Source: Acidobacteriota bacterium (GTDB lineage: Bacteria; Acidobacteriota; UBA6911). Taken from it: a DNA stretch of 64,000 nt. Positions 9,598 to 63,092 of this stretch are shown here, piece after piece. Under the pieces are notes generated by a model. That model saw only the letters and a list, made by a program, of their open reading frames with translations, had not been told where the DNA came from and made no database searches. The translations under genes and the position numbers were made by a program. Within the stretch, counting starts at the first letter, position 1; each line of letters begins with the position of its first letter. The DNA is taken from NCBI GenBank assembly GCA_012729555.1, contig JAAYCX010000051.1, positions 17,882 through 81,881 on the forward strand. Reading direction: 5' to 3'.

Positions 9598-9996
9598 ATG
9601 GAAACGTTTTCGGTCCGGACCCGGGAGCACACCCAGTTCCTGGACATCACCCGGAACCTCGAGACGGCCGCGGGGGCGGCGGGGATCCGGCGCGGAGTGC
9701 TGACGGCCTTCGTCCCGACCACCACCGCCGGGATCACCATCAACGAAAACGCCGACCCGAGTGTCACCGCCGACCTGGCCGCGGCCCTCGAGCGCTCCGT
9801 CCCCTGGCGGGCGGGTTACGCGCACGGCGAGGGGAACGCGGCGGCACATGTAAAGGCAAGCCTGATGGGGTCCTCGGTGCAGGTCCTGGTGGAAGACGGG
9901 CGCCTCGCGCTCGGCACGTGGCAGGCGGTCTATCTCTGTGAATTCGACGGCCCCCGCACCCGCGACGTCTGGGTCACGACCGTGCCGCACCCGTAG
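9598..9996 (+). CDS. YjbQ/UPF0047 family protein (secondary thiamine-phosphate synthase-like)
   Basis: Characteristic motifs GVLTAFVPTTTAGITINENADPSV and AHVKASLMGSSVQVLVEDGRLALGTWQAVYLCEFDGPRTR. 132 aa. Confidence 0.85.
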   Translation: METFSVRTREHTQFLDITRNLETAAGAAGIRRGVLTAFVPTTTAGITINENADPSVTADLAAALERSVPWRAGYAHGEGNAAAHVKASLMGSSVQVLVEDGRLALGTWQAVYLCEFDGPRTRDVWVTTVPHP

Positions 9997-11071
9997 GGAA
10001 AACCACGCGGAAGCAGGCCCCGCGCCCGGGCGGCGAGGAAACCCGGATCTCCCCGCCGTTGTTGCGGACCAGCTGGTAGGAGATCGACAGGCCCAGCCCG
10101 GTCCCCTCCCGCCTGGTGGTGAAAAAGGGGTCGAAGATCGACTCCATCTTTTCCGGATCGATCCCGGGGCCGTCGTCCTCGACCGCGATCTCGAGCGTGT
10201 CCCCCTCGAGCGCGCCGTGCATCCGGACTTCCCCGCCTTCCGGCTGCGCCTGGACGGCGTTGAGGAGGATGTTGATCAGCACCTGCTTCACCTGCTCCGG
10301 ATCCACGTCGAGCGTGGCCGCGGGAGCGTCCAGCCGCCCGACGATCGAAACCCCCCGGCGCCGGGCTTCGTCATCGCACAGGCGCGCCGCCGCCCCGGCG
10401 ATCTCGCGCCAGTCGGCCGGCATCCGCCGCGGGGGCGCGGGGCGGGAGAAGGCGAGGATTTCGCCCGTCAGCTTCTCCAGCCGGGCGACCTCCTGCCGGG
10501 CGATGCGCGCGAATTCGCCCCGCGGGTCGCCTTCCGGAAGGTCCTGCCCCAGGATCTCCACCGCCCCCTGGATCGATCCGAGGGGATTGCGGATTTCGTG
10601 AGCGATCCCGGCCGAAAGCCGCCCGAGCGACGCCAGCCGGTCCGAGTGCCGGATCTGCTCGAAGGCCTGGTTCAACCTTCCGTAGGCCTCCTCGAGATCG
10701 GATCCGGTCTTCTCGAGCCGCTCCCTGGTCATCCGTTGCGCCCGCGCCAGGTACCCCAGCAGCACGGCGATCACGAGGTACATGAGGATCTCGGCGTACT
10801 GCTGGAAGGCGTAGGTCGGATGGTGGCCCCAGTCCCGCCAGATGTGAACGAGGTAGAGCAGGGCCAGGCCGGCGGCCGTGACCACCCCGCCCAGGATCTC
10901 GAACCAGAAGCTGGCCAGGATGACGGGGAGGTAATAGCCGCGCTGATAGACCTGGTGCAGGTACATGTGCTCGGTACCGGTCCAGTAATGGAGCGCCGTG
11001 ATCGCCAGCACGGAGGCGGCGATGATGCCCTTCTTCGTCCAGGCGCCCCTCCCCCTGCCGGCCCGCGTCAT
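9974..11071 (-). CDS. sensor histidine kinase (4-TM sensor; HisKA + HATPase_c)
   Basis: H-box AHEIRNPLGSI. N/G boxes LNAVQA, EDDGPGI, GTGLGLSI. Start chosen at ATG 11071, which forms an ATGA overlap with the upstream response-regulator stop; the track's longer 449-aa start is a G/R-rich extension. Confidence 0.8.
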   Translation of the reverse strand: MTRAGRGRGAWTKKGIIAASVLAITALHYWTGTEHMYLHQVYQRGYYLPVILASFWFEILGGVVTAAGLALLYLVHIWRDWGHHPTYAFQQYAEILMYLVIAVLLGYLARAQRMTRERLEKTGSDLEEAYGRLNQAFEQIRHSDRLASLGRLSAGIAHEIRNPLGSIQGAVEILGQDLPEGDPRGEFARIARQEVARLEKLTGEILAFSRPAPPRRMPADWREIAGAAARLCDDEARRRGVSIVGRLDAPAATLDVDPEQVKQVLINILLNAVQAQPEGGEVRMHGALEGDTLEIAVEDDGPGIDPEKMESIFDPFFTTRREGTGLGLSISYQLVRNNGGEIRVSSPPGRGACFRVVFPTGAARS

Positions 11072-12471
11072 CCCTCCTCCGCCCCGTCGCTGCCCGGCAG
11101 GCCCCGGTACGGGCCCAGCCCGTACTTCTGCATCCGGTAGACCAGCACGTTGCGCGATACATGCAGAAACCGCGCCGCCCTGGTCTGGTTCCCCCCCGTC
11201 CGCTCGAGCGCCTCCGCGATGACGTCCTTCTCCAGTTCCTCGAGCACCACCCCTTCGGGCGGAAGGCTGATGGAGGCCCGGCCGATCGTCAGGCGGGGCT
11301 CCAGGATCTCGCCGGGCAGGCACTCCATGTCGGCCTCCTCCCCCCGGGAAAAGACGACCAGGCGCTCCACGACATTTTCAAGCTCGCGGACGTTTCCCGG
11401 CCAGTGGTGGGCTTCCAGCTTGTGGAGGACGGCCGGCCCGATCCGGAGGGGCGGGCGGTTGTAGCGGCGGCAGATCCGCTCGGCGAACAGCTGCACGAAC
11501 AGGGGGATATCCTCCCGGCGCTCGCGCAGCGGCGGCACCTCGAGCGGCGCCACGTTCAGGCGGTAGAACAGGTCCTGCCGGAACAGGCCGTCCGCGGCCA
11601 TCCGCCGGAGGTCCCTGTGCGTGGCGGCGATGATGCGCACGTCCACCTTGCGCGGGAGCGTTTCCCCGATGACGTCGATCTCGTGCTCCTGCACCACCCG
11701 GAGGATCTTCGCCTGCAGCTGCTGCGGCAGGTCGCCGATTTCGTCCAGGAACACGGTACCGCCGTCCGCCGCCTCGAACTTGCCGGTCCGGTCGGCCGCG
11801 GCGCCGGTGAAGGCCCCCTTGCGGTAGCCGAACAGCTCCGACTCCAGGAGCGCGTCGGGGATGGCGCCGCAATTGACGATCACGAACGGCTTGCCCGCGC
11901 GCGCGCTGTTGTAATGAATGGCCTTGGACAAAAGCTCCTTCCCGGTCCCGCTCTCCCCCGCGACCAGCACCGTGGTGTCGACGGCGGCGAGGCGGCCGGC
12001 CTGCCCGATGACGCGCCGCATCGCCTTCGCCCCCCCGACCAGGCCGTCGAACCGGAACGCGGCCGTCACCGCCTCCCGCAGGTTGCGGTTTTCCTCCACC
12101 AGGCCGGCGAAGGCGAGGGCCTGCCGGAGCGTATGCAGCAGGGTGTCCCGGTTGAGGGGCTTGGTCAGGTAATGGAAGGCCCCGGCCTTGACAGCCTCGA
12201 CGGCCGAATCGATCGTGCCGTAGGCGGTGACCACGATGACGGGCGTGTCGGGAGACCTGCGCCTGATTTCGAGCAGGAGCTCCTGGCCCGGGATGCCGGG
12301 CATGTCCAGGTCGGTCAGGACCGCGTGGCAGCGATGGCGGGAGAAGAGCTCGAGCGCCCGCTCGCCCCCTTCGGCCTCGAGCACCTCGTAGCCCGCCTGC
12401 CGGAGCTGGTATTGCAGCACGCGTCGGAAACTCGCGTCGTCGTCGGCGATCAGGATCAGGGGCGCGGGCAT
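11068..12471 (-). CDS. sigma-54-dependent Fis-family response regulator (REC + AAA+ sigma-54 activator + HTH)
   Basis: REC domain (ILIADDDASFRRVL...DLDMPG). AAA+ motifs GESGTGKE and GAFTGA. C-terminal Fis HTH (RAARFLHVSRNVLVYRMQKYGL). Confidence 0.9.
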   Translation of the reverse strand: MPAPLILIADDDASFRRVLQYQLRQAGYEVLEAEGGERALELFSRHRCHAVLTDLDMPGIPGQELLLEIRRRSPDTPVIVVTAYGTIDSAVEAVKAGAFHYLTKPLNRDTLLHTLRQALAFAGLVEENRNLREAVTAAFRFDGLVGGAKAMRRVIGQAGRLAAVDTTVLVAGESGTGKELLSKAIHYNSARAGKPFVIVNCGAIPDALLESELFGYRKGAFTGAAADRTGKFEAADGGTVFLDEIGDLPQQLQAKILRVVQEHEIDVIGETLPRKVDVRIIAATHRDLRRMAADGLFRQDLFYRLNVAPLEVPPLRERREDIPLFVQLFAERICRRYNRPPLRIGPAVLHKLEAHHWPGNVRELENVVERLVVFSRGEEADMECLPGEILEPRLTIGRASISLPPEGVVLEELEKDVIAEALERTGGNQTRAARFLHVSRNVLVYRMQKYGLGPYRGLPGSDGAEEG

Positions 12472-12615: not shown

Positions 12616-12781
12616 AGAAGGGCACATGAGCCTTGTTTTTCCGCATGATCAAATGAGACCGGACACCCTCCCCGGTCCCGTCCGGCTTCCTCCCCATGAA
12701 AAAAGGAATCCCCGAGACTGAGACAAACGGTCGCATGGTTCGTAAGTATATGTGAATGGTTTTCCAAAGAGGTGTTCATCC

Positions 12782-13549
12782 ATGGCTGGAGACAAAAAAC
12801 CTGAAACTGAAAAAACCGAGAAAAGGTTTTCCCGGCGCGCTTTCGTCGTAGGCGGCGGAACCGCCCTCGCCGGAGGAGCCCTGACCGCCGTATCCGGCGC
12901 CACCGCGATGGCGGCGCAGGGTACCAAGAAAAACGCCATCGACTATCCCCTTTCCACCAAGTACCTGGTCTACGACAGCAAGCACTGCGCCGGGTGTCTC
13001 AACTGCATGATGGCCTGCTCGATGGTGCATGAAGGGGCGACCAGCCTGTCGCTGGCCCGCATCCAGGTCCACCGGGCGGTGCTCAACCGGTACCCCCAGG
13101 ATATCGTGCAGAACATCTGCCGGCAGTGCCCGGAACCGCTCTGCGTGGACAACTGCCCCACCGGCGCCTGCCACGTCAGCGCCGAAAACGGCAACGTCCG
13201 GCTGATCGATCAGGAAAAATGCATCGGTTGCCAGACCTGCATGCGCTCCTGCCCCTACAGCCCCCACCGCCCGATCTGGAACCCCGTGACCAGGAAGGCC
13301 ACCAAGTGCGACCTGTGCGTCAACACCCCCTACTACAACAAGAAGGGGGGGCCCGACGGGACCCAGGCCTGCGTGGAAATCTGCCCGGCCAACGCGCTCG
13401 CCGTCGTGGACAAGCTCCCGGACCAGGCCGACAACCGGGGTTACGATCGTAACCTGCAGCCGCCGCCGAAGAAGGCGCCTCCTTTCGGAGCATTCCCTAA
13501 AGAGAAACCCAAAGCCAAAACCGAGGCGCCCAAAGCGCCCGCAAACTAG
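12782..13549 (+). CDS. Tat-signal 4Fe-4S ferredoxin-type electron-transfer subunit (YdhX-like)
   Basis: Twin-arginine motif FSRRAFVVGGG. Four CxxCxxCxxxCP-like clusters (CAGCLNCMMAC, CRQCPEPLCVDNCP, CIGCQTCMRSCP, CDLCV...CVEICP). AGAGG RBS 11 nt upstream of ATG 12782. Confidence 0.8.
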   Translation: MAGDKKPETEKTEKRFSRRAFVVGGGTALAGGALTAVSGATAMAAQGTKKNAIDYPLSTKYLVYDSKHCAGCLNCMMACSMVHEGATSLSLARIQVHRAVLNRYPQDIVQNICRQCPEPLCVDNCPTGACHVSAENGNVRLIDQEKCIGCQTCMRSCPYSPHRPIWNPVTRKATKCDLCVNTPYYNKKGGPDGTQACVEICPANALAVVDKLPDQADNRGYDRNLQPPPKKAPPFGAFPKEKPKAKTEAPKAPAN

Positions 13550-13566
13550 GGAAAGGAGGGGACGTT

Positions 13567-15621
13567 ATGGCTACACCAGGATTTGGTGGAAAGATTCTGC
13601 TGGTCAACCTGTCCACCAAGGAAATCAGGGCGCTCGATTCGGAAAAGTATGAAATGTACGGCGGCGGCCACGGCACGGCCACGGCCCTCTTCTGGGAGTT
13701 CTGCGTGGCCCCCGGAGACTGGGACCTGCAGGACGCCTTCCACCCCAGGAACATGGTCGCCCTGATGACGGGGGCGATGGCGGGCACCGGCACCCCGGCC
13801 GCCTCGCGCACCAGCGTCTCGGGCCTCTCCCCGCAGTGCTACCCGGTCCAGTGGTTCTGCCACAGCAACTTCGGCGGCGCCTTCGCCACGATGATGAAAT
13901 TCGCCGGCTGGGACGGCGTGGCCGTCATCGGCAAGGCGGAATCCCCCGTCTACATCAACATCGTCGACGACAAGGTCACCCTGGAAGACGCCAAGGCCTT
14001 ATGGGGGCTCGATTCCTGGAAGACCCAGGAGGAGATCTGGAAGCGCACCGGCGTCCGCTTCGGCGAGGAGTGGTGGCGCCTCGACGGGGGCTACTCCGTC
14101 CAGCGGCCCCAGATCGTGACGATGGGCCCGGCGGGCGAAAACCTGACCCGCGTGGCCTCTCTCATCCACGGCGGCGGCAGCGGCGCCGGGCAGGGCGGGT
14201 TCGGCGGGGTGTTCGGGTCCAAGAACCTGAAGGCGGTGGCCGTCGTCGGCACCGGGAGCATCAAGATCGCCGACCCCAAGGGGCTCAAGGACGCCCGGGA
14301 ATGGTGGGACAAGACCTGGCCCCGGATGGGCGGGGGCTTCGGCGGTTTCGGGCCCGCGTCGGTGTCCTCCTGCTGCGCCGGCTGCGGCATTCCGCGCATG
14401 TGCCACAACCGCGACCGCACCTACAGCGTGGACTCGGACGACTGCGCGGAATCGACCTGGTATTCGCTCGTCGACCACCAGACCCCGACGGAGATCAACC
14501 AGAAGGGGACCGACATCTGCCAGCAGCTAAGCCTGAACGCCATGGAAACCTGTTTCATGGGCCCCATGGCATTCCCGACCGACCACAACAAGGACTTCCC
14601 GATCCAGCCGAAGATTCCCGCCTACACCGCCCTGGGCTGGTACATGAAGAAGATGTACGACATGGGCATCATCGGCCCCGGCACGAAGTACGACACTTCC
14701 CCCCTGCCGATGGACGCCTTCAAGAGCGAACAGTTCATGGAGATCTACGGCATCGCCCTGGCCAACCGGATCGGCATCGGCGACATGCTGGCGGAAGGGA
14801 CGGCGCGCTTCGCCGAGAAGCTCGGAAGGACGGACGATTTCAACACCCTCTGCCGGCTGACCATGTGGGGGTACCAGGACCACTGGTCCATGCCCGGGGT
14901 CGAATGGGCCTACGGCAACCTGCTCGACTCGCGCGACATCAACAACCACGACATGTCCGTGGGGCGCAAGCGCGGGATCACGTGCGAGCAGTTCGTCAAC
15001 ATCCTCGCCGAGCGGACGCTGGGGAACGACCCCTTCTGGTTCGACTACACCTGGGAGGGGGACCGGGCCTACAAGACCGGGATCTACTCCGAATCCACCG
15101 CCAAGTGGGTGGCCTGGCACCAGCACTACTGGAACTACTACAAGGAATCGGTCGGCTTCTGCGACTGGGGCTACTCCCAGCTTTACAACCAGGCCCACGC
15201 CAAGGGTTACGGGCACACGCCGGAGATCGAACCCAGGTACCTCAACGCCGTCACCGGGCGCAACCACACCTTCCAGGACGGGCTGGAAATCGGCCGGCGC
15301 GCCTGGAACCTGAAGCGGGCGATCTTCGTCCTGCAGGGGCGCCACCGCAAGATGGAAAACTTCACCGGGTACTACTACCGGCCGGGGGCTTCCTACTGCG
15401 GCTACGCCACCGAGCTCCCCATCTATGACGGGTCCCAGTGGGACTGGCAGAACTGCCGGGAGCTCTTCTTCACCCGGGAAGGGGTGGACACCTTCAAAAC
15501 CCTCTTCTACAAGGAAGAGGGGTGGAACCCCGATTCGGGCTACCCCACCCGCAAGACGCTGGAGGATCTCGACATGAAGTATGCGGCCGACCTCCTCCAG
15601 TCCAAGGACAAACTGGGGTAG
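13567..15621 (+). CDS. aldehyde:ferredoxin oxidoreductase (AOR) family W/Mo-pterin enzyme, YdhV-like
   Basis: AOR N-terminal domain (GKILLVNLSTKEIRALDSEKYEMYGGGHGTATALF). Fe-S Cys motif SSCCAGCGIPRMC. C-terminus YKEEGWNPDSGYPTRKTLEDL matches my recollection of E. coli YdhV. Paired with the YdhX-like Tat ferredoxin. Confidence 0.8.
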   Translation: MATPGFGGKILLVNLSTKEIRALDSEKYEMYGGGHGTATALFWEFCVAPGDWDLQDAFHPRNMVALMTGAMAGTGTPAASRTSVSGLSPQCYPVQWFCHSNFGGAFATMMKFAGWDGVAVIGKAESPVYINIVDDKVTLEDAKALWGLDSWKTQEEIWKRTGVRFGEEWWRLDGGYSVQRPQIVTMGPAGENLTRVASLIHGGGSGAGQGGFGGVFGSKNLKAVAVVGTGSIKIADPKGLKDAREWWDKTWPRMGGGFGGFGPASVSSCCAGCGIPRMCHNRDRTYSVDSDDCAESTWYSLVDHQTPTEINQKGTDICQQLSLNAMETCFMGPMAFPTDHNKDFPIQPKIPAYTALGWYMKKMYDMGIIGPGTKYDTSPLPMDAFKSEQFMEIYGIALANRIGIGDMLAEGTARFAEKLGRTDDFNTLCRLTMWGYQDHWSMPGVEWAYGNLLDSRDINNHDMSVGRKRGITCEQFVNILAERTLGNDPFWFDYTWEGDRAYKTGIYSESTAKWVAWHQHYWNYYKESVGFCDWGYSQLYNQAHAKGYGHTPEIEPRYLNAVTGRNHTFQDGLEIGRRAWNLKRAIFVLQGRHRKMENFTGYYYRPGASYCGYATELPIYDGSQWDWQNCRELFFTREGVDTFKTLFYKEEGWNPDSGYPTRKTLEDLDMKYAADLLQSKDKLG

Positions 15622-15645
15622 ACCCTGTCCCCACGGATCCGACCA

Positions 15646-15682
15646 GGCCTCCGGAGCGAGAGTTCCGGAGGCCTTTTTTTTT
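15646..15682 (+). terminator. rho-independent terminator after the AOR gene
   Basis: GGCCTCCGGA-gcgagagt-TCCGGAGGCC followed by T9. Confidence 0.7.
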
Positions 15683-15789
15683 GCTGCCGCCGCCCCGCCG
15701 TTTGCGATAACGTATCAGTCCTCAGCCATCCTGAAGAATGGAAGGATAGAACCCGCCCCGGACGCCGGGGCCCAGACAGGGAGCAGCCG

Positions 15790-17613
15790 ATGAAAAAAAC
15801 GATCGTTCGTCTCTGTATTCTACTCGCCGCCGGAGCCCTGGCCGCCGCCTGTTCCAGGGGCCCGAAGCCGCCGGACCGCGCGGCCCTCGTCAAGATGATG
15901 GAGCGATATCTCGACGCCGTCGTGCGCCACGACCCCACCGGGCTCCCCTTCGCGCGCGACGTCAGGTTGGTGGAGAACATCCAGCCCGTCCAGGTGGGCA
16001 AAGGGCTCTGGGAAACCGCCACCTCCGGCCCGACCGAGTTTAAAATCTATGTCGCCGACCCCGCAGCCGGGCAGGTGGGATTCATGGGGGTGATCGGCGA
16101 CAAGGGGAAACCGGCCCTCCTGGGGGCGCGGCTCAAGGTGGTCGGCGGCAGGATCACCGAAATCGACCACATGGTCTCCCCCCTGACGGGCGAGCTCCCG
16201 GCAGGCCTCCTCGAGCCGCGCGCGGGACTGGTGACTCCCCTCGATCCCTCCGAACGGGTGTCACGCGGCGAGATGCTCCGGGCGGCCAACGCCTACTACG
16301 ACGCGATCGAGCAGAGCGACGGCGGCGTGGCCCCCTTCGCCGACGAGTGCCAGCGCCGTGAAAACGGCGTCACCGCGGCCAACAACCAGGATCCCCCTCC
16401 GCCGGGGCCGACCCCCTTCGGCGCCATGGCCGCCTTCGGCCGGATGAAGTGCGCCGAGCAGCTCTCGACCGGGATCATGGGCTACATCACCGACATCAAC
16501 CAGCGGCGCCCCGTCGCCGTGGACGAGGAGATGGGCCTGGTCATGGTCTATTCGGTCTTCAACCACGACGGCGAACCGAACCCGCTCAAGATCCGCAACA
16601 TGCCCGGCGTGACCGAGAGCCCCAACGACTGGGGGGAGTTCACCGTCCCCGCCGCCCACATCTACAAGATCCGAAACGGCAGGATCCATGAGATCGAGGC
16701 GATGGCCATCGTGGGCGTCCCCTACCGGGCGAGCGACGGCTGGAACCTTACCCGGCAGGGCCTCGTCGACCTCATGGAGGACTACCTGGCCGCGCTGGCC
16801 CGGCACGACCCCTCCGGGCTCCCCCTGGCCCGCGACGTGAAGCTGGTGGAAAACACGCGTAAGATCCCCGTCGGGAAGGGGCTCTGGGAAACGGCGAGTT
16901 CCGGGCCGACCGACTTCAAGATCTACGCGGCCGACCCCGACAGCGGGGAGATCGGCTTCATGGGCGTGATCGGGGAGAAGGGAAAACCGACCATCGCCGC
17001 CGTCCGGCTGAAGGTGGCCGACCGCAGGATCACGGAGATCGACCACCTGGTGGTCCACGGCGACGGGCCGCTCAACCCGAACATGTCGAACCTGCGCCCG
17101 GCGCTGCTCGAGCGGGTGCCGAAGCTCGAGCGGGTGCCGCGCGGGAAGATGCGGGAGATCGCCAATTCCTACTACGAGGCGATCGTGCAGGACGACGGCA
17201 ATGTCGCCCCCTTCGCCGACGAGTGCGAGCGGAGGGAGAACGGCGGCACGAGCGCGGGCGACCGGACCCCGCCGCAACCGGGCGAGGACGACTTCTCCCC
17301 CTTCCGCCGGATGACGTGCGGCGCGCAGCTCTCGACCGGCGTGATGAGCTACATCACCGACATCGACAGCCGCCGCATCCTCGCCCTGGACGAGGAGAAG
17401 GGGCTGGCCTTCGCCTTCTCCATCTTCCGCCACGACGGGGAGCCGAAGGTGATGAACATCGTCGGCGTCCCCGGCATCACCGAGCGCAAGAACGACTACG
17501 GTCCCTTCGACCTCCCCGCCGCCCACGTCTTCAAGATCCGCAACAACCGGATCTACGAGATCGAGGCGGTCGGCTACATGGACAAGCACGGCATCCCGAG
17601 CGGCTGGGAATAG
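15790..17613 (+). CDS. lipoprotein composed of two tandem ~300-aa repeats of an uncharacterized domain
   Basis: Signal peptide plus lipobox (LLAAGALAAACS). Residues ~30-300 and ~300-607 are clearly homologous (VGKGLWETATSGPTEFKIY/VGKGLWETASSGPTDFKIY; APFADECQRRENG/APFADECERRENG; KIRNGRIHEIEA/KIRNNRIYEIEA). A third copy is at 62076-63092. Confidence 0.7.
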   Translation: MKKTIVRLCILLAAGALAAACSRGPKPPDRAALVKMMERYLDAVVRHDPTGLPFARDVRLVENIQPVQVGKGLWETATSGPTEFKIYVADPAAGQVGFMGVIGDKGKPALLGARLKVVGGRITEIDHMVSPLTGELPAGLLEPRAGLVTPLDPSERVSRGEMLRAANAYYDAIEQSDGGVAPFADECQRRENGVTAANNQDPPPPGPTPFGAMAAFGRMKCAEQLSTGIMGYITDINQRRPVAVDEEMGLVMVYSVFNHDGEPNPLKIRNMPGVTESPNDWGEFTVPAAHIYKIRNGRIHEIEAMAIVGVPYRASDGWNLTRQGLVDLMEDYLAALARHDPSGLPLARDVKLVENTRKIPVGKGLWETASSGPTDFKIYAADPDSGEIGFMGVIGEKGKPTIAAVRLKVADRRITEIDHLVVHGDGPLNPNMSNLRPALLERVPKLERVPRGKMREIANSYYEAIVQDDGNVAPFADECERRENGGTSAGDRTPPQPGEDDFSPFRRMTCGAQLSTGVMSYITDIDSRRILALDEEKGLAFAFSIFRHDGEPKVMNIVGVPGITERKNDYGPFDLPAAHVFKIRNNRIYEIEAVGYMDKHGIPSGWE

Positions 17614-17641
17614 CGCCGCCCGGTTTCTTTCCGCATTCCAG

Positions 17642-17670
17642 GGGCGGGCCATCGGGCCCGCCCTTTTTTT
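17642..17670 (+). terminator. rho-independent terminator
   Basis: GGGCGGGCC-atcg-GGCCCGCCC followed by T7, between convergent genes. Confidence 0.7.
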
Positions 17671-17680
17671 CGGGGATGGC

Positions 17681-19012
17681 CTACTCCGCGCCCGAGAGTT
17701 CCAGTTCGTAGACGAAGTCGGGACGGCCCTCGCCGCGCAGGTCGCTGACCCGGAGATAATAGGTCCCCGGGGTGGAAATGTAGAAATTCGAGATCCCCGA
17801 ATCCAGGACCACCCCCAGCTCCAGGTCGTCGTTGTACGTCATCCGGGCGCAGTCCGAGTCGAGGATTTCGAGGAAGGAATCGAGAAAGATGTCGGGGCTG
17901 GTGGGGTCCCCGGACAGCGACAGGCGCTGGGCCAGGATCCCGGCCGTGATCCTGGCCCCCGCGCCCGCCTGGAACCGGTAGACATCGACGTCGCCGTAGG
18001 GGCTGAGGGAGGCGCGGATCACGCCGTTCGATATCGGGCTGGCCGTCGTCGGGCCGCAGGCGTCGTTGCGCCCCGGCGCCGCGCTGCGGACCGTGACCGC
18101 AAGGGTCTCCGCGGCCGTCGAGCCCGTGGAGTCGGTCACCCTCGCCCCGAACTGGAAGGCGGTGTCGATCGTGACGGCGGGCGCCGTCCCCGTCATCGCG
18201 CCGTCGGCGGAAAGGGCGATCCCCGGGGGGGGCGCGCCGGACGCGAGCGCCCAGGAATACGGGGGAATCCCCCCCTCGGCCCGGAGCGCGTAGTCGTAAG
18301 TCCTGCCGGAAGCGCCCGGAGGGAGGCTCCGGGTCGACACGTAGACGCCGGGCGCGGCGACGGAGAGGGCGATCTGGCCGCTCGTCCCCCCGCCCGGGGA
18401 GGGGTTGCGCACCTGGACCGGCACACTCCGTGCCGCGGCCAGGTCCGCCGCGGTCAGCGCCACCGCCAGGCGGGTCGAATTGATGAAGGTGCCGGTCCGG
18501 CCGGCGCCGTCGATCTGGACGACGGAGCCGGACACGAAATTCTCCCCGTAGAGAACCAGGGTCGTGGCGGGACTTCCGGCCGTGATCCGGAGCGGGTTCA
18601 GGGAATAGAGGACCGGGACCGGGTTGTTGATGGCAAAGCTGGATTCGGCCGAGAATTCGACGCTGGGGGAATAGTTGGCCACCACGATCTTGGCCGTCCC
18701 AGCCGTGGCCACGTCCGCCGAGGAGATGTCGGCCCGCACCTCGGTGGCGCTCACATAAGCGGTGGGGCGCTCGCTGCCGTTCCAGCGCACCTTCGCGCCG
18801 CTCGTGAAGTTCTTTCCCTTCACCGTCAGGGTGAAGGTGATGGAGCCCGCCTGGACTCCCGCGGGCGAAAGGTAGGTGATCGTCGGGCGCGTGTCCGCCT
18901 GGGGCGGGGTTATGCCGCCCGCGGGGGTGGAGGACCCGCCCCCCCCGCCGCATCCGGCGGCGAACAGGATCAGGAGGAGCGCCGTCGCGCCATGAAGCCG
19001 GGCCCGCATCAT
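17681..19012 (-). CDS. exported lipoprotein with repeated IPT/TIG-like Ig domains, a putative-Ig (He_PIG-like) segment and C-terminal PPC (pre-peptidase C-terminal) domain
   Basis: Lipobox LFAAGCGGG. Three ~85-aa repeats (PTITYLSPAGVQAGSITFTLTVKGKNF / PVLYSLNPLRITAGSPATTLVLYGENF ...). GGIPPYSWAL motif. C-terminal DVYRF...YYLRVSD is typical of the PPC domain. Confidence 0.6.
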   Translation of the reverse strand: MMRARLHGATALLLILFAAGCGGGGGSSTPAGGITPPQADTRPTITYLSPAGVQAGSITFTLTVKGKNFTSGAKVRWNGSERPTAYVSATEVRADISSADVATAGTAKIVVANYSPSVEFSAESSFAINNPVPVLYSLNPLRITAGSPATTLVLYGENFVSGSVVQIDGAGRTGTFINSTRLAVALTAADLAAARSVPVQVRNPSPGGGTSGQIALSVAAPGVYVSTRSLPPGASGRTYDYALRAEGGIPPYSWALASGAPPPGIALSADGAMTGTAPAVTIDTAFQFGARVTDSTGSTAAETLAVTVRSAAPGRNDACGPTTASPISNGVIRASLSPYGDVDVYRFQAGAGARITAGILAQRLSLSGDPTSPDIFLDSFLEILDSDCARMTYNDDLELGVVLDSGISNFYISTPGTYYLRVSDLRGEGRPDFVYELELSGAE

Positions 19013-20301
19013 TCGCCCTCCCCCTCCCAGGCGTCGTAGCGCGGCCCGGTCCCGATGAGTACGATGTCGGTCCCGGTCGAGAGAACCTGCCCGGGCCCGA
19101 CGCTCACGGTCGTGCGCGTGCCGCAGTCGTCCGTCGGCCGCGGCGGATGGTGCAGGTACTGGAGATCGCAGCTCCCGGGCATCTTGTACTGGAAGCCGAG
19201 ATAGTCCCCGATGGGACCCACCCCGCTTTCGTAAACGAAGGGAAGGGGATCCGAATTGAGGATCGCCTCCACCTCGACCGTGTAGGTCCCCGGGGGGAGG
19301 CCCGGAATATCGTAAAAGCCGATCAGGTTCCGGTCGTGCGACCCGTAGAAGAAGCTCGTGTCCATTCCGAAGGGGACCAGGGGGTTTCCGGCCCCCGCCG
19401 TGAACCGGTACCCCGAAACCGAGGAGACCGCGGTGACGCGCGCGTCGGCCGTGTTCCGGGCGATCACGTTATACCCCTGCGCGGGAGTGACCCCGTCGGA
19501 GAACACGACCCGCCCCTGGATCCGGCCCGTGGAGGCATGGAAGGAGGATTCGGGGTAGAGGGAGGACACCATGGAGATATCGTCCGTGTTCAGGGTCGCC
19601 TGCCCGTCGCCCACCAGGAGCGGAAACATCGTCGGCACCCCCGAAAGGTCCTCGGCGGAACAGTCCGTGGCACACCCGACGTTGATCTGGGAATGCCCGA
19701 GGCCGATCAGGTGCCCGAATTCGTGCACGAAGACACCGTGAAACTCGTCGAGGGTCACCGACTGGTGCCCCGCCGAATCGGGCTCGCCGTCGATGAACCT
19801 CCCGTTCATCACCGCCCAGCCGCGCGTGTAGGTCCCCAGCCGGTCGTTGGTGCAGACCGCGCCGGCGAACCCGAGGACCGAATTCTTGTCCATCCCCAGG
19901 GCTTCGATGATGCTCCCGTCCAGGTCGTAGACGATCGAGCCGGGGGGCTGCGAGGGATCCGAGCACATGCCGAGCATATTCTGAAAGCTGAGGATATTGA
20001 CGGCGGTGATGTCCGAGGAGAGTTTCCCGTCGTTCTGAAACCCGATCGAGGCGGAATCGACATCCTCCCAGACCCGGAACGCCGCCGAGACCATGGCGTC
20101 GGCCTCCGCGTTGGTCCGGTTCCCCAGCCCCCCCTGGTCGGTCTTGTAGCGGATGACGCTTCCGGCCCAGCGGTAGGGCTCCCCGGGAGTAACGGCGCTG
20201 GGGCCGGTCACGTACAGCGGCCCCCCGGCGAAAGCGGAAAAGAGCATTCCCGCCGCGAGCATCGCGACGGCAAAACGGATCGTTCGGGCGCAGCTCTTCA
20301 T
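19009..20301 (-). CDS. secreted metzincin-type zinc metalloprotease (HEFGHLIGLGH)
   Basis: Signal peptide. HExxHxxGxxH motif VHEFGHLIGLGHS. 4-bp overlaps with both flanking genes make this a three-gene operon. Confidence 0.75.
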   Translation of the reverse strand: MKSCARTIRFAVAMLAAGMLFSAFAGGPLYVTGPSAVTPGEPYRWAGSVIRYKTDQGGLGNRTNAEADAMVSAAFRVWEDVDSASIGFQNDGKLSSDITAVNILSFQNMLGMCSDPSQPPGSIVYDLDGSIIEALGMDKNSVLGFAGAVCTNDRLGTYTRGWAVMNGRFIDGEPDSAGHQSVTLDEFHGVFVHEFGHLIGLGHSQINVGCATDCSAEDLSGVPTMFPLLVGDGQATLNTDDISMVSSLYPESSFHASTGRIQGRVVFSDGVTPAQGYNVIARNTADARVTAVSSVSGYRFTAGAGNPLVPFGMDTSFFYGSHDRNLIGFYDIPGLPPGTYTVEVEAILNSDPLPFVYESGVGPIGDYLGFQYKMPGSCDLQYLHHPPRPTDDCGTRTTVSVGPGQVLSTGTDIVLIGTGPRYDAWEGEGE

Positions 20302-24360: not shown

Positions 24361-26058
24361 ATGAAGCGTACACTGTTCCCCCTGGCCGCCCTCGCCCTCG
24401 GCGCCGCGGGAGTGCTGGCCCCGCCGGCACCCCTTGCGGCGGAGCCCTCCGCCCGGTACGAGGTCCTGAGCCCCTGGGCCGAGGTCGATCCCGTCCCCCT
24501 GCGGGGCCTTTCGCCCCGCCTCGATTCCCTGGCGGGAAAAAAGATCGGAATTTTCGCCAACTACAAGCGCGCGGCGCTGCCGGTGGCCGAGGCGATCGAA
24601 AAGAACCTGAAGACCCTCCACCCGGACATCCAGACCGTCCTCTTCCATTCGACCGAATGGAACGTCACCGAGGTCGAGACCGCCGACCGTGAAACGTTCA
24701 CCGCCTGGGCCAAGGGGGTGGACGCCGTCGTCGGCGTCATCGGCGATTGAGGATCCTGCACGAAGTTCCTCGTCTATAACGGCATATCGATCGAGGACTT
24801 CGGCACGCCGGTCGTGTTACTGGCACATCCAGGATTCGTAAGAGACGCACAGAGCGCAGCCTCCGGCAAGGGAATGCCGGGCATCAGGGTGCGCCCCATC
24901 CAAATAGCCAACGAAACCACCGTGGCCGCCGACATCGAAGCCGGCGCCTCCGGGGCGATGCCCGGCATCGTCGCCGCCCTGACCGATCCGCTGACGGCCG
25001 GGGAGCGCTCCCCCAAAAGGGATGCGGCCGCTCCCCCCCGCGTCGCCTTCGCGGGGGATTACGAGGCGGTCAACCGCTTCTTCTACCGCAAGGGGTGGAC
25101 CGACGGGCTCCCCATCGTCCCCCCGACCGAAAAGGCCGTGGCCGAAATGCTCGAGGGGACCGACCTGCCGCCCGACCACCTGGTGGCCCGCGTCATCCCG
25201 CGCCTGGGAAAGGCGACGGTCGAGAAGATCGCCGTCAACGCCGTCATGGCGGGGGCGCTGCCGACCCACATGCCGGTGCTCCTGGCCGCCGTGCGCGCGC
25301 TCATGAACCCGAAATCGCGCTTCGACACCTTCGAGGTGAGCACCGGGTCGTGGGCCCCCTTCTTCGCCCTCAACGGCCCCGTCCGCAATGACATCCTCGT
25401 CAATTCCGGCTCGGGCGCCCTCAGCCCGGGCGACATCGCCAACGCCGCCATCGGCCGCGCCGTGGGCCTCATCGTCAAGAACATCGGGGGGGCCCGCAAG
25501 GGGATCGAGGACATGGGCGTCATCGGCAACCCCTCCAAGTACAGCCTCGTCATCGGCGAAAACGAGGAGGAGAGCCCCTGGACCCCGCTGCACGTCGACC
25601 GCGGTTTCCGCAGGGAGGAGAGCACCCTGACCCTCTTCTTCCCCAACGGCTTCGCCCAGTCGGTCCCGCGCGCCACCAGCGCGGAGGGGATCGCCCGGGC
25701 GCTCGCCGACATGGGGCCCTGGAGCATGTCGTGCCTCATCGTCATCCCCTCCCACGCCCGCATCCTGGCCGACGAAGGGTGGACGAAGGAGAAGCTCCAG
25801 GAGTACATCCTCCGAAACGCCGCCGACCCCTTCGCCGCCATCGGCGAAAAACCGGACGTTTTGTCGGCGCCCCCGGCCCTCAACCGCGGCGGGTTGCTGA
25901 TCCTGGTCGCCGGCGGCCCCGGCGCCTGGATGGGGATGCTGCGCAGCGTGGGGGGGATCGAAAACGACTTCGTCACCGAGCCGATCGAGTTCCCCAAAAA
26001 CTGGGACTCCCTGGTAAGGAAGTACAGGAACGTCCGCCCCACCTACGAAGACTACTAG
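24361..26058 (+). CDS. candidate selenoprotein: ~130-aa secreted N-terminal domain ending in a U-G-S-C motif (in-frame TGA 24748-24750), continuing in-frame into a conserved ~415-aa domain (GWTDGLPIVPPTEKAVAEML...). Conventional annotation would split it into 24361-24750 and 24814-26058.
   Basis: TGA at codon 130 is followed by GGA TCC TGC (G-S-C). The downstream ORF is in the same frame (both start coordinates are 1 mod 3). An 11-bp bulged hairpin begins 11 nt after the TGA, where a bacterial SECIS would be expected. The paralog at 46809-48569 has the same architecture, with conserved sequence spanning the TGA. Confidence 0.5.
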
Positions 26059-59967: not shown

Positions 59968-59968
59968 A

Positions 59969-61456: not shown

Positions 61457-62029
61457 TTACCAGGCCTTCGGGTTGCCGCCCGGGGAGATCCAGTCGGCCA
61501 CCTGCTCGTTGTAGATGACGCGTTTGCTGAAGAGCCACTGGCCGTCCACCTTGACCATCTCGTCCTCGTAGTGCCCGTAGGAATCGATCTGTGCCTTCCG
61601 CTCCGGGTTGTTGTTCCCGTAATGGAACCAGTAGGCCTTCCCCACCGCCCGGTCGCCGTCGACCTTGATCACGATGTTGGTGATGTTGTGCCGCCCCGTC
61701 GGGGGGTAGGAGCCCTGGACAGCCTCCGCCGTGGGATCGAACACGTTCTGGGCCTCTTCGATCTTCTTGCGGATCTCGGCGCGCCCCTTGGCCTGGTAGG
61801 CGATGATGTCGAGCACCCCGTCCTCGGTGAAGGTGGAGACGTAGGTGTCCAGGTCGGACGAGTCGAGCGCGAACAGGTAACGGGCCTGCAGGTCCTCGAT
61901 CTGGGCGCGGTCCTCGGCGTAACTGCCGGCCGCTTTCGTCCCCGCGGTGTCGGCGGGGGTGCAGGAGAGGGTCAGAAGCAGGCAGGCGGCCAGGGCGGCG
62001 CCGGTCCATCCGGTCAGTGTTCCCTTCAT
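61457..62029 (-). CDS. NTF2/SnoaL-like fold lipoprotein
   Basis: Lipobox LLTLSCT. Size and hydrophobic pattern (DGVLDIIAY...GKAYWFHY...DGQWLFSKRV) typical of NTF2-like proteins. Lies 46 nt downstream of the paralog lipoprotein gene. Confidence 0.5.
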   Translation of the reverse strand: MKGTLTGWTGAALAACLLLTLSCTPADTAGTKAAGSYAEDRAQIEDLQARYLFALDSSDLDTYVSTFTEDGVLDIIAYQAKGRAEIRKKIEEAQNVFDPTAEAVQGSYPPTGRHNITNIVIKVDGDRAVGKAYWFHYGNNNPERKAQIDSYGHYEDEMVKVDGQWLFSKRVIYNEQVADWISPGGNPKAW

Positions 62030-62075: not shown

Positions 62076-63092
62076 CTATTCCCAACCCGTTCGGGTTCCG
62101 TATGGAAGGACGAGGCCGGTGGCCTCGATGTCGTAGATCTTCCCCTTCCGGATCTTGAAAATGTGAATGGCGGGCATGTTGAAGGTCCCCTGGTAGGCGG
62201 GGACGCTCGTCACCCCGGGGACCCCCTTGAGCTCCATCGTCTTGAGCTTGCTGTCGTGGTAGAGGTTGGAAAAACCGACGGCCAGCCCTTTCTGTTCGTC
62301 GATGACGAGCAACCGCCGGTTGCGGATCTCGGAGATGTAGGCCCACACCCCGGCCGTGATCTGCTCCTCGCACGTGTTGGGCACGGCCGCCAGCGCCCGG
62401 GCCAGCTTCATCATCTCGGGGTCGGCCGCCCCCGGGGGGGGGAACTGCGGGGCGTCGGCCGCGGGCTTGGCCGCTTCCCGTTTCCCCCCTACCGAGGTGG
62501 CCCCGTTCTCGCGCCGCTCGCACTCCCGGGCGAAGGGAGCCAGCGTGCCGTCCTCCCCCGTGAGCGCGTCGTAGTAGGCGAGCCCGATGTCGAGCATCCG
62601 CGCCCGTGGGGTCCGCTCCTCGGGCGCCAGGTCCTCGACCAGGCCGGGGCGCGGCTTCCGGAGGTTCTGCATGGAGTGGAGCTGGTCCTGCCGGACGACA
62701 TGATGCTCGGCTTCCGAGACCTTTCCCCGGCGCAGGGCCAGCCGGACCCCGAGGAGGACGTCCTCCCTGCCGTTCTCCTTCATCATGACCAGGGCCGCCA
62801 CCTGCTGCGCGACCGGGTCGGCGGCGTAGACCTGGAACTCTTCGGGCCCGCCCGAGGCCGTGACCCACAACCCGTACCCGACCGGGATGTCCGCCGTGTT
62901 CTCGGTGAACTTGACCTCCTTGTCGAACGGCACCTTCCCGGGATCGTGAGCGACCAGGGCGGAGAGGTACTGTTTCATCACGTCGACCAGGCACTGCCGG
63001 TCGCAGGTCTCGGCAGCGCCGAGCAGGCCGGGAACGGCCAGAACGGCGGCCAGGGCCGCAATCCACAGGGTACCGGGGCGTTGCATGCTCAT
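62076..63092 (-). CDS. single-domain paralog of the tandem-repeat lipoprotein family (see 15790-17613)
   Basis: Signal peptide. Same domain as the tandem copies (APFARECERRENG, PAIHIFKIRKGKIYDIEA, C-terminal GWE). Start at MSMQRP (ATG 63092). Confidence 0.7.
   Translation of the reverse strand: MSMQRPGTLWIAALAAVLAVPGLLGAAETCDRQCLVDVMKQYLSALVAHDPGKVPFDKEVKFTENTADIPVGYGLWVTASGGPEEFQVYAADPVAQQVAALVMMKENGREDVLLGVRLALRRGKVSEAEHHVVRQDQLHSMQNLRKPRPGLVEDLAPEERTPRARMLDIGLAYYDALTGEDGTLAPFARECERRENGATSVGGKREAAKPAADAPQFPPPGAADPEMMKLARALAAVPNTCEEQITAGVWAYISEIRNRRLLVIDEQKGLAVGFSNLYHDSKLKTMELKGVPGVTSVPAYQGTFNMPAIHIFKIRKGKIYDIEATGLVLPYGTRTGWE

What the first reader, a model, noticed from the sequence alone, without database searches (positions are those of the whole stretch)
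15790..17613. Lipoprotein built from two tandem copies of an uncharacterized ~300-aa domain; a third, single-copy paralog lies at 62076-63092
Within 15790-17613 the two halves share long identical stretches: VGKGLWETA(T/S)SGPT(E/D)FKIY, GFMGVIG(D/E)KGKP, RITEIDH, APFADEC(Q/E)RRENG, MxYITDI(N/D), and a C-terminal KIRN(G/N)RI(H/Y)EIEA. The same motifs recur in the 62-kb paralog, which is immediately followed by an NTF2-like lipoprotein.

All copies are exported lipoproteins. The invariant Cys in ADEC(E/Q)RRENG, and a second Cys about 40 residues later (MKCAEQLSTG / MTCGAQLSTG / PNTCEEQITAG), may form a disulfide or metal site. I do not recognise the family. Three copies in 64 kb suggests lineage-specific expansion.
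Basis: seen in the sequence. Interest (0 to 1): 0.55.

Follow-up and report, generated by a model that had tools for sequence, protein, structure and literature searches.

The report
Exported protein of four NTF2-like modules
The gene encodes a lipid-anchored, exported protein made of two copies of the catalogued but uncharacterised domain DUF8021, each copy being a fused pair of NTF2-like pocket modules; it is a conserved, widespread protein of anaerobic bacteria whose function is still unknown, not a local oddity.

Summary
ORF 15790-17613 (607 aa) has two halves that are 56% identical (E 2e-116). A third copy at 62076-63092 is about 41% identical to each.

The family is not unrecognised: it is Pfam PF26061 (DUF8021), which is catalogued but has no known function and no papers in the searched library.

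AlphaFold models are confident (pLDDT 91 and 88). Each roughly 290-aa unit is a tandem of two NTF2-like (SnoaL/limonene-epoxide-hydrolase-like) modules that are homologous to each other, so the protein has four modules.

The doubled form is the standard ortholog in Acidobacteriota, Desulfobacterota and Phycisphaerae MAGs (more than 500 clusters, 65-76% identity). One-unit and three-unit forms also exist. Units A, B and C are each closer to orthologs in other phyla than to one another, so "lineage-specific expansion" is not supported.

Only the double has a lipobox; the paralog has an ordinary signal peptide. The two cysteines are conserved (92% and 86%) but not invariant.

Terminator-like hairpins flank the gene. 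Neighbours vary. The most recurrent is an exported UGSC selenoprotein, followed by a small radical SAM enzyme and aldehyde-oxidising enzymes.

The most likely role is a cofactor-free periplasmic acid/base enzyme, or a small-molecule binder. Interest is moderate.

The parts
15790..17613 (+). Gene for the 607-aa exported DUF8021 x2 protein, stop codon included. The exact protein is in NCBI as 'MAG: hypothetical protein GXY47_10070 [Acidobacteria bacterium]'.
   Evidence: ORF. Exact-sequence look-up found it in 36 collection blocks with a precomputed PF26061 hit. Name.
15790..15852 (+). Signal peptide with lipobox: MKKTIVRLCILLAAGALAAAC, with the lipidated Cys predicted at residue 21.
   Evidence: Sequence. 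Lipobox pattern match at residue 21. The AF2 model has low pLDDT over residues 15-23.
15874..16743 (+). DUF8021 unit A (residues ~29-318), made of NTF2-like module A1 (~30-131) and module A2 (~156-306). It keeps all family-conserved residues, including C187, R189, E191, C221, R239, R240, D245 and E303.
   Evidence: secondary structure; residue table.
16753..17610 (+). DUF8021 unit B (residues ~322-607), made of NTF2-like module B1 (~322-422) and module B2 (~448-595). It keeps all family-conserved residues, including C479, R481, E483, C510, R528, R529, D534 and E592.
15645..15684 (+). Intrinsic-terminator-like hairpin (13-bp stem, 9 G-C pairs, followed by T8) between the AOR gene and the DUF8021 gene.
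   Evidence: sequence visible.
17640..17675 (+). Intrinsic-terminator-like hairpin (11-bp stem followed by T5) directly after the DUF8021 gene.
62076..63092 (-). Single-unit DUF8021 paralog ('C-type', 338 aa) with a type-I signal peptide and no lipobox. All family-conserved residues are present.
61457..62029 (-). SnoaL_4 (NTF2-like) putative lipoprotein, 46 bp downstream of the paralog. It has no detectable sequence relationship to DUF8021.
   Evidence: Pfam E 3.7e-27. hhalign against the DUF8021 C-half profile gives probability 0.2%. The neighbour is conserved in L072 and L081, with a more distant SnoaL_4 hit in L090.
24361..26058 (+). Exported UGSC-family selenoprotein gene with an in-frame TGA at 24748-24750. 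It is the most recurrent neighbour family of DUF8021 genes and a possible functional partner.
   Evidence: Recurrence in 12 lineages.
12752..15621 (+). Upstream pair on the same strand: a Tat-signal NrfC-like 4Fe-4S protein (12752-13549) and a YdhV-like aldehyde:ferredoxin oxidoreductase family protein (13567-15621). This is context and probably a separate transcription unit.
   Evidence: Terminator. An orthologous pair sits next to a DUF8021 array in L040.

Best explanation
The gene encodes a Sec-exported, probably lipid-anchored periplasmic protein built from two DUF8021 units. Each unit is a fused pseudo-dimer of two homologous NTF2-like cone modules, so the protein has four modules produced by two old rounds of tandem duplication. 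This part is shown. Both units keep the complete family-conserved polar set, so both are probably functional. In family numbering, where family position n corresponds to residue n+321 of the 607-aa protein (unit B), that set is E33, N34, W45, D61, R85, E95, R127, R130, Y140, C158, R160, E162, C189, R207, R208, D213 and E271. The following part is inferred. The protein most likely works as a cofactor-independent acid/base enzyme of the kind typical for NTF2-like catalysts (isomerase, dehydratase, hydrolase or retro-aldol lyase). It would act on a small carbonyl-bearing or anionic organic substrate in the periplasm. The Asp/Glu/Arg/Tyr residues would line the pocket of the larger C-terminal module of each unit, and the conserved Cys pair nearby would be a redox-sensitive or catalytic element. 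Fusing units would fix a hetero-oligomer that single-unit relatives form non-covalently. The gene is transcribed on its own.
For: Duplication. DUF8021 membership: precomputed PF26061 hits. Fold: AF2 models with pLDDT 91/pTM 0.90 for one unit and pLDDT 88/pTM 0.83 for the full length. Foldseek against the PDB gives 87 hits at E<=1e-3, all 50 listed NTF2-like (LEH, NsrQ/Dcr3 isomerases, SnoaL-type cyclases, PhzA/B, KSI-like). Each hit covers about half a unit (TMq<=0.32, TMt up to 0.69). The two halves are homologous by hhalign (E 1.5e-5, 95 columns). The conserved polar set comes from 130 divergent units and is retained in units A, B and C. Export. Monocistronic layout: terminator-like hairpins on both sides. 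Old and widespread: 2,134 clusters at 50% identity; the A-B fusion occurs in about 38 loci of several phyla and in more than 500 clusters; orthology pattern. Carbonyl theme among neighbours: AOR family in the window, L040, L070, L080 and L005; aldehyde dehydrogenase in L005, L022, L092, L087 and L088; aldo-keto reductase in L094; SDR in L005, L030 and next to the paralog. Redox hint: an exported UxxC selenoprotein lies within 10 kb in 12 lineages and is adjacent on the same strand in 5 (PMC2398784).
Against: No family member has been characterised, and no papers were found for DUF8021 or PF26061. Sequence profiles find no solved relative, so catalytic residues could not be mapped onto any known NTF2 enzyme. 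According to PMC3924330, enzymatic NTF2-like domains are mostly intracellular, while exported or lipid-anchored ones are often non-catalytic binders. Neighbourhoods are heterogeneous, and most loci show no conserved partner. SDR, AKR and aldehyde dehydrogenase families are abundant in genomes, so the carbonyl theme is suggestive only. The terminator between the AOR gene and this gene argues against co-transcription in this window.
Confidence: 0.45

Rival explanations
1. The protein is a non-catalytic periplasmic small-molecule or lipid binder, acting as a carrier or sensor. The four NTF2-like cones would hold hydrophobic or amphipathic ligands and pass them between outer-membrane receptors or efflux systems and inner-membrane transporters, as MlaC/Ttg2D-type and other exported NTF2-like proteins are thought to do.
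For: The protein is exported and lipid-anchored. PMC3924330 argues that secreted or lipobox-bearing NTF2-like DUFs are ligand binders. Several homologs lie next to transport genes. The paralog is followed by SnoaL_4 and an OEP-MFP-RND efflux operon. A distant Novosphingobium homolog lies between a TonB-dependent receptor and an MFS transporter. The three-unit form P0455 sits among four TonB-dependent receptors.
Against: An unusually large set of charged and polar residues is conserved at 85-99% across clusters that share only about 30% identity (D213 99%, R160 97%, E33 98%). The PMC3924330 heuristic treats such a set as a sign of catalysis. All 50 listed Foldseek hits are enzymes or designed proteins, and no MlaC-type protein appears among them. 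The transport-gene neighbours are not conserved across loci.
Confidence: 0.25
2. The protein is a periplasmic thiol-based redox or detoxification protein. The conserved Cys pair of each unit would cycle between dithiol and disulfide, or trap electrophiles, and would be recycled by the exported UGSC (UxxC) selenoprotein. This system would protect the envelope of anaerobes against reactive aldehydes, quinones or oxidants.
For: The Cys pair is present in 107 of 130 divergent units. The mature window protein contains exactly these four cysteines and no others. The UGSC selenoprotein gene is the most recurrent neighbour, found in 12 lineages across both the A-B and C-type subfamilies. That protein has a signal peptide and a likely thioredoxin fold with a UxxC motif (PMC2398784). 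ECF sigma/anti-sigma pairs lie next to the gene in L005, L022 and L092, and aldehyde-oxidising enzymes and RND efflux genes occur nearby.
Against: Either Cys can be lost alone (18 of 130 units), and 5 units lack both. The spacing between them is variable (31-50 residues), and their proximity in the fold was not checked. No precedent for a redox-active NTF2-like protein was found here. The enrichment of UGSC neighbours was judged against a rough background estimate, not a proper null model.
Confidence: 0.15
3. The protein is an accessory subunit of the adjacent periplasmic YdhV-like tungsten/molybdenum aldehyde oxidoreductase. It would deliver or prepare that enzyme's substrate, for example by unmasking an aldehyde.
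For: The gene lies on the same strand, 168 bp downstream of the Tat-ferredoxin/AOR pair. Synteny is kept in L008-L010. An orthologous Fd+AOR pair (65% and 71% identity) lies next to a DUF8021 array in a Desulfatiglans MAG (L040). AOR-family genes lie within 10 kb in L005, L030, L070 and L080.
Against: A strong terminator-like hairpin separates the two genes. Most DUF8021 loci, about 70 of 80 lineages, have no AOR within 10 kb. Single-unit orthologs at 70% identity sit in unrelated contexts.
Confidence: 0.1

Closest known systems
Pfam PF26061 (DUF8021), a domain of unknown function
   Same: The window protein, its paralog and all homologs retrieved carry precomputed PF26061 hits. This is the family the protein belongs to.
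   Different: The entry is a catalogue label only, with no function, no solved structure and no literature. The results on internal two-module NTF2 architecture, the conserved residue set and the gene neighbourhoods were derived here and were not found in any source searched.
NTF2-like superfamily enzymes: limonene-1,2-epoxide hydrolase, SnoaL-type polyketide cyclases, NsrQ/Dcr3 isomerases, PhzA/B and ketosteroid-isomerase-like proteins
   Same: The predicted fold of each module is the same: a long helix packed into a curved antiparallel sheet that forms a cone. Foldseek E-values are 1e-4 to 1e-3 with TMt 0.5-0.69. Polar residues are conserved on the strands and on helix 1, as in the catalytic members.
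   Different: There is no sequence-level relationship: SnoaL_2 scores 17 bits against a cutoff of 27, and PDB profile searches find nothing. The known enzymes are single modules of about 130-150 aa and are usually cytoplasmic, whereas this protein is exported and has four modules. The conserved Cys pair and the Arg-rich set did not match the catalytic set of any NTF2-like enzyme I could recall; this comparison is from memory and was not tested.
Tandem or paired NTF2-like polyether epoxide hydrolases (Lsd19; MonBI-MonBII, PDB 9kw8)
   Same: Two NTF2-like domains work together in one chain or complex of about 270-290 residues. 9kw8_C is the best Foldseek hit of the full-length model (E 4e-5). 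That Lsd19 is a natural two-domain fusion is from my own knowledge.
   Different: The superposition is poor (TMt 0.33, rmsd 16.9), so the module arrangement differs. Those enzymes are cytoplasmic and belong to Streptomyces polyether biosynthesis, whereas this family is exported and found in anaerobes with no biosynthetic cluster context.
Exported or lipid-anchored NTF2-like DUFs (DUF3828, DUF3887, DUF4878; PMC3924330)
   Same: They are bacterial, carry a signal peptide or lipobox, have the NTF2-like fold, and have unknown function.
   Different: Those families are single modules with few or no conserved polar residues and are proposed to be non-catalytic binders. DUF8021 has about 20 strongly conserved polar positions and a tandem-module unit.

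Membership tests
Pfam PF26061 (DUF8021) | Significant match to the PF26061 profile HMM | tested here: met
   Precomputed hits at the strongest confidence level for the exact 607-aa protein, the paralog and all listed homologs. The local Pfam copy gave no PF26061 hit even for homologs that carry the precomputed hit. It probably predates the model, so the profile match itself could not be re-run here.
Pfam PF26061 (DUF8021) | Full-length homology to other DUF8021-annotated proteins | tested here: met
   Identity of 65-75% over 100% of the unit to hundreds of PF26061-annotated proteins. There are 2,134 clusters at 50% identity with E<=1e-3.
NTF2-like superfamily (fold level) | Alpha+beta cone: N-terminal helix or helices packed against a curved antiparallel beta-sheet | tested here: met
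   AF2 models (pLDDT 91 and 88) show a helix followed by 5-6 strands, twice per unit. This is a predicted structure, not an experimental one.
NTF2-like superfamily (fold level) | Structural similarity to solved NTF2-like proteins | tested here: met
   Foldseek against the PDB gives 87 hits at E<=1e-3. All 50 listed are NTF2-like, with TMt up to 0.69. The full-length model gives the same picture.
NTF2-clan Pfam families (SnoaL_2, SnoaL_4 and others) | Sequence score above the family gathering threshold | tested here: not met
   The best match is SnoaL_2 at 17 bits against a cutoff of 27, covering the last strand only. hhalign against the neighbouring SnoaL_4 protein gives probability 0.2%.
Limonene-epoxide-hydrolase-type / polyether epoxide hydrolases | Asp-Arg-Asp catalytic triad plus Tyr/Asn water-binding residues in structurally equivalent positions | tested here: inconclusive
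   Residues of these types are conserved (R207/R208, D213, E271, Y140, N163). Structural equivalence could not be checked because no residue-level structural alignment or model coordinates were available.
Limonene-epoxide-hydrolase-type / polyether epoxide hydrolases | The two-domain arrangement superposes on MonBI-MonBII or Lsd19 | tested here: not met
   9kw8_C is the top hit but with TMt 0.33 and rmsd 16.9 A over 328 columns.
Bacterial lipoproteins | Positively charged N-terminal region, hydrophobic core region, and a lipobox [LVI..][..][AGS]C within about 40 residues of the N-terminus | tested here: met
   Met for the 15790 gene: MKK..., LAAAC with Cys21. Not met for the 62076-63092 paralog, which ends ...LLGAAETC, nor for 112 of the 119 M-start members of its subfamily examined. 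Lipidation itself cannot be tested with these tools.
MlaC/Ttg2D-type periplasmic lipid carriers | Fold match to MlaC-family structures | tested here: inconclusive

The most novel reading that the evidence does not exclude
DUF8021 proteins, the exported UGSC/'Unknown_1' selenoprotein and (in some Desulfobacterota) a small radical SAM enzyme together form an undescribed periplasmic system of anaerobic bacteria. In it a four-pocket NTF2-like protein would use its conserved Cys/Arg/Asp sites for redox-coupled chemistry on reactive carbonyl or electrophilic compounds. That would be a new catalytic use of the NTF2 fold and the first functional context for one of the most abundant orphan selenoprotein families.
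Probability: 0.12. Interest if true: 0.7.

Novelty: new variant of a known kind. Interest (0 to 1): 0.38.

Why it matters
DUF8021 is a large family (more than 2,000 clusters at 50% identity) that is unusually well conserved, at 65-80% identity across phyla. It is common and multi-copy in uncultured Acidobacteriota, Desulfobacterota, Bacteroidota and related anaerobes from digesters and sediments, yet it has no assigned function or literature. Together these give concrete targets for expression, structure determination and mutagenesis. The recurrent linkage to an exported UGSC selenoprotein offers a testable lead for two orphan families at once. If the protein turns out to be an ordinary binder or a minor isomerase, the result is a routine annotation improvement.

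Tried and rejected
1. Local Pfam and NCBIfam scans gave no family hit. The local Pfam copy appears to lack PF26061, which was identified only through precomputed annotations.
2. PDB sequence searches with the protein, the unit profile and a diverse C-half profile found nothing real; a giant-haemoglobin hit is spurious.
4. A sigma-54 promoter search near the gene, prompted by the adjacent sigma-54 two-component system, gave fewer matches than chance and none in the relevant intergenic regions.
5. Co-transcription with the AOR operon was rejected because of the terminator-like hairpin between the genes.
6. I considered a carbohydrate or pectin role, because GH28, CE8/CE15, GH53, GH30, GH3, GDSL-esterase and sulfatase genes occur as neighbours. 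Seed searches show each in only 1-7 lineages. My rough estimate, not a formal test, is that this is no more than expected in CAZyme-rich genomes.
7. I tested whether the radical SAM neighbour could be a maturase of the protein. Radical-SAM-linked A-B proteins show no distinguishing Cys, Ser or Gly residue, only lineage-level substitutions.
8. A search for informative domain fusions found only a small DUF1161-type N-terminal extension.
9. A three-His metal site was rejected: H99 and H259 (unit-B alignment numbering) are not conserved across the family, where these positions are mostly Thr and Glu.
10. Homology between DUF8021 and the adjacent SnoaL_4 protein was rejected.
Full report
OBSERVATION. 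The ORF at 15790-17613 (+) encodes 607 aa. Residues ~30-318 and ~322-607 align at 56% identity over 292 columns, E 2e-116. Each half is 41-42% identical to the 338-aa product of 62076-63092 (-). At the DNA level the halves are 72% identical over 791 nt, and tblastn finds exactly three units in the 64-kb window.

WHAT THE FAMILY IS. The local Pfam and NCBIfam scans gave only a sub-threshold SnoaL_2 hit on the last strand. However, every homolog retrieved, the exact 607-aa protein and the paralog all carry a precomputed hit to PF26061, named DUF8021. The local Pfam copy evidently lacks this model. The family is therefore catalogued but uncharacterised. No paper in the library mentions DUF8021 or PF26061, and no solved structure is related by sequence. 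The exact protein is deposited as 'MAG: hypothetical protein GXY47_10070 [Acidobacteria bacterium]' and recurs in at least 36 assembly blocks.

ARCHITECTURE. An AlphaFold2 model of one unit, built on a 44-sequence alignment, is confident (pLDDT 91, pTM 0.90). It shows two consecutive 'long helix plus curved sheet' halves. Foldseek against the PDB returns 87 hits at E<=1e-3. All 50 listed are NTF2-like proteins: limonene epoxide hydrolase, NsrQ/Dcr3 isomerases, SnoaL-type cyclases, PhzA/B, KSI-like proteins and de novo NTF2 designs. Each covers only about half of the unit (TMq<=0.32, TMt up to 0.69). Profile-profile comparison shows that the N- and C-halves of a unit are homologous (E 1.5e-5, 95 columns). 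Their conserved motifs are in register: VEN with RREN, D61 with D213, and RLKv..gkItEIdH with FKIr.GkIyEIEA. So the '~300-aa domain' is itself an old tandem of two NTF2-like modules, and the 607-aa protein has four modules. The full-length model is also confident (pLDDT 88, pTM 0.83), which suggests a fixed packing of the units. Its best PDB hit is the MonBI-MonBII polyether epoxide hydrolase pair, but the superposition is poor (TMt 0.33).

DISTRIBUTION AND AGE. An exhaustive search finds 2,134 clusters at 50% identity (E<=1e-3), and about 25 of the top 150 representatives have two units. A full-length search finds more than 500 clusters at 90% identity of ~609-aa two-unit proteins at 65-76% identity, plus three-unit forms of ~895 aa. 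In reference genomes the family occurs only in uncultured MAGs: Acidobacteriota (closest match 93%), Desulfatiglans and Desulfobacterales, Thermodesulfobacteriota, Phycisphaerae, Bacteroidales, Ignavibacteriota, KSB1, Calditrichota and Neomarinimicrobiota. The A-B fusion is present in about 38 fetched loci. Bacteroidota-type lineages carry single B-type genes, and some Desulfobacterota carry arrays of two or three A-B genes plus divergent paralogs. Window unit A is 69-74% identical to unit A of other phyla but only 56% to its own unit B. The paralog is 78-80% identical to C-type orthologs in other phyla. The duplications are therefore old and shared, or spread by transfer, and are not a lineage-specific expansion.

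EXPORT. The double starts MKKTIVRLCILLAAGALAAAC, with a lipobox and Cys21. The paralog has a type-I signal peptide (...LLGAA/ETC). Across homologs, about one third of the A-B and B-type proteins have a lipobox, against 7 of 119 C-type proteins.

CONSERVED RESIDUES. Family numbering here means that position n corresponds to residue n+321 of the 607-aa protein. Across 130 divergent units the positions conserved at 85% or more are E33, N34, W45, D61, E75, R85, E95, E/D97, R127, R130, Y140, C158 (92%), R160, E162, G164, C189 (86%), R207, R208, D213 (99%) and E271. The histidines conserved in the close subfamilies are not conserved family-wide. Both cysteines are present in 107 units, only the first in 13, only the second in 5, and neither in 5. 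They are linked but not obligatory partners. All three window units keep the whole set, and the mature window protein has exactly these four cysteines.

CONTEXT IN THE WINDOW. Upstream on the same strand lie a Tat-signal NrfC-like 4Fe-4S protein and a YdhV-like AOR-family protein. A 13-bp-stem hairpin followed by T8 separates them from the DUF8021 gene, and a second hairpin follows the gene, so it is probably monocistronic. The paralog lies divergent to a GH28 gene, a CE15+CE8 fusion, a GntR/FCD regulator and an SDR. It is followed by a SnoaL_4 gene and an OEP-MFP-RND operon.

CONTEXT ELSEWHERE. I clustered all neighbour ORFs from about 80 lineages. No universal partner emerged. The most recurrent neighbour is an exported UGSC-family selenoprotein fused to an unknown ~400-aa domain. 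It occurs in 12 lineages across both the A-B and C-type subfamilies and is adjacent on the same strand in 5 Desulfobacterota loci. The window itself carries this gene at 24361-26058, with an in-frame TGA in the UGSC motif. The literature regards UGSC proteins as thioredoxin-fold UxxC selenoproteins of unknown function (PMC2398784). Other recurrent neighbours are:
- a 270-aa radical SAM protein directly downstream in 7 lineages;
- ECF sigma/anti-sigma pairs;
- Tat-exported DUF169 and MoaF-like proteins;
- AOR-family genes, including an orthologous Fd+AOR pair (AOR 71% identical) next to a Desulfatiglans array;
- aldehyde dehydrogenases;
- TonB-dependent receptors.
Each CAZyme family occurs as a neighbour in only 1-7 lineages. 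By my rough estimate, not a formal test, that is no more than expected for CAZyme-rich genomes.

MECHANISM. Shown: the protein is exported, has four modules with a predicted NTF2-like fold, both units are intact, and it is a widely conserved family. Inferred: NTF2-like cones bind small molecules in a common pocket and, when lined with conserved Asp/Glu/His/Tyr/Arg residues, catalyse cofactor-free acid/base chemistry next to carbonyls or epoxides (established knowledge of the superfamily; PMC3924330). The large conserved polar set, together with the repeated presence of carbonyl-oxidising or -reducing enzymes nearby, makes a periplasmic acid/base enzyme the best single guess (0.45). The fusion would fix a hetero-oligomer of units. 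Three rivals remain:
- a non-catalytic binder or carrier (0.25), favoured by export and by TBDR/RND neighbours;
- a thiol-redox or detoxification protein serviced by the UGSC selenoprotein (0.15);
- an accessory of the neighbouring AOR (0.10).

NOVELTY AND VERDICT. It is a distinct, uncharacterised branch and architecture within a well-known fold superfamily. I rate it a new variant of a known kind with moderate interest (0.38). The UGSC-selenoprotein linkage is the most promising lead.

Noticed in passing
window 24361-26058 (+): This is a single 565-codon reading frame with one in-frame TGA at 24748-24750, in the context GVIGD-TGA-GSC (the 'UGSC' motif). It appears to be an exported UGSC-family selenoprotein fused to an unknown ~400-aa domain. 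Gene callers split it into a 129-aa gene and a 394-aa gene. The same in-frame arrangement occurs in L071. No SECIS element was searched for.
   Followed up: partly
window 12752-15621 (+): A Tat-signal (SRRAFVVG) NrfC-like 4Fe-4S protein is followed by an AOR-family protein whose best curated match is the E. coli YdhV-type model (below cutoff). This suggests a periplasmic tungsten/molybdenum aldehyde oxidoreductase. A sigma-54 two-component system (AtoS/AtoC-like, 9974-12471, minus strand) lies divergent to it, but no -24/-12 promoter was found.
   Followed up: partly
window ~63237-64000 (+), continuing beyond the window end (seen in L095): A GH28 polygalacturonase gene starts divergently from the paralog and runs off the window. 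Beyond it on the same contig lie a fused CE15 glucuronoyl esterase/CE8 pectinesterase, a GntR/FCD regulator and an SDR. Together these look like a pectin or uronate utilisation cluster.
   Followed up: partly
window 55712-61369 (-): An OEP (TolC-like, 59969-61369), MFP (58792-59967) and RND pump (~55712-58792) operon lies directly downstream of the paralog and the SnoaL_4 gene, on the same strand. Possible co-transcription was not tested.
   Followed up: no
window 17681-20301 (-): A convergent pair of exported proteins lies downstream of the DUF8021 gene: an Ig-like/PPC-domain protein with a lipoprotein-type N-terminus (17681-19012) overlapping an M10-like zinc metallopeptidase with a HEFGH motif (19009-20301). 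The pair is syntenic in L008 and L010.
   Followed up: no
homologs P0008, P0009, P0396 and the C-type subfamily; window paralog residues ~30-34: Many family members have a CxxxC motif (for example KCDRACL or TCDRQCL) at the start of the first helix of a unit, in 31 of 130 divergent units. The window paralog has it, but both units of the window double have lost it (PDRAAL, LTRQGL).
   Followed up: partly
L005, L022, L052, L056, L059, L066, L092: A ~270-aa radical SAM protein (CxxxCxxC motif, no SPASM/twitch hit, no characterised subfamily above cutoff) is encoded 4-200 bp downstream of A-B DUF8021 genes in seven lineages. In L005, L022 and L092 an ECF sigma/anti-sigma pair lies upstream. The window has no such gene next to its DUF8021 genes.
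   Followed up: partly
L088 (Novosphingobium capsulatum plasmid NZ_CP140001.1, 499764-500681): A distant DUF8021 homolog (28% identity) is annotated as a hypothetical protein. It sits between a TonB-dependent receptor and a ketopantoate-reductase-like reductase, a TPP enzyme and an MFS transporter, with a divergent aldehyde dehydrogenase and beta-ketoadipate pathway genes nearby. This is an aerobic catabolic context for the family.
   Followed up: partly
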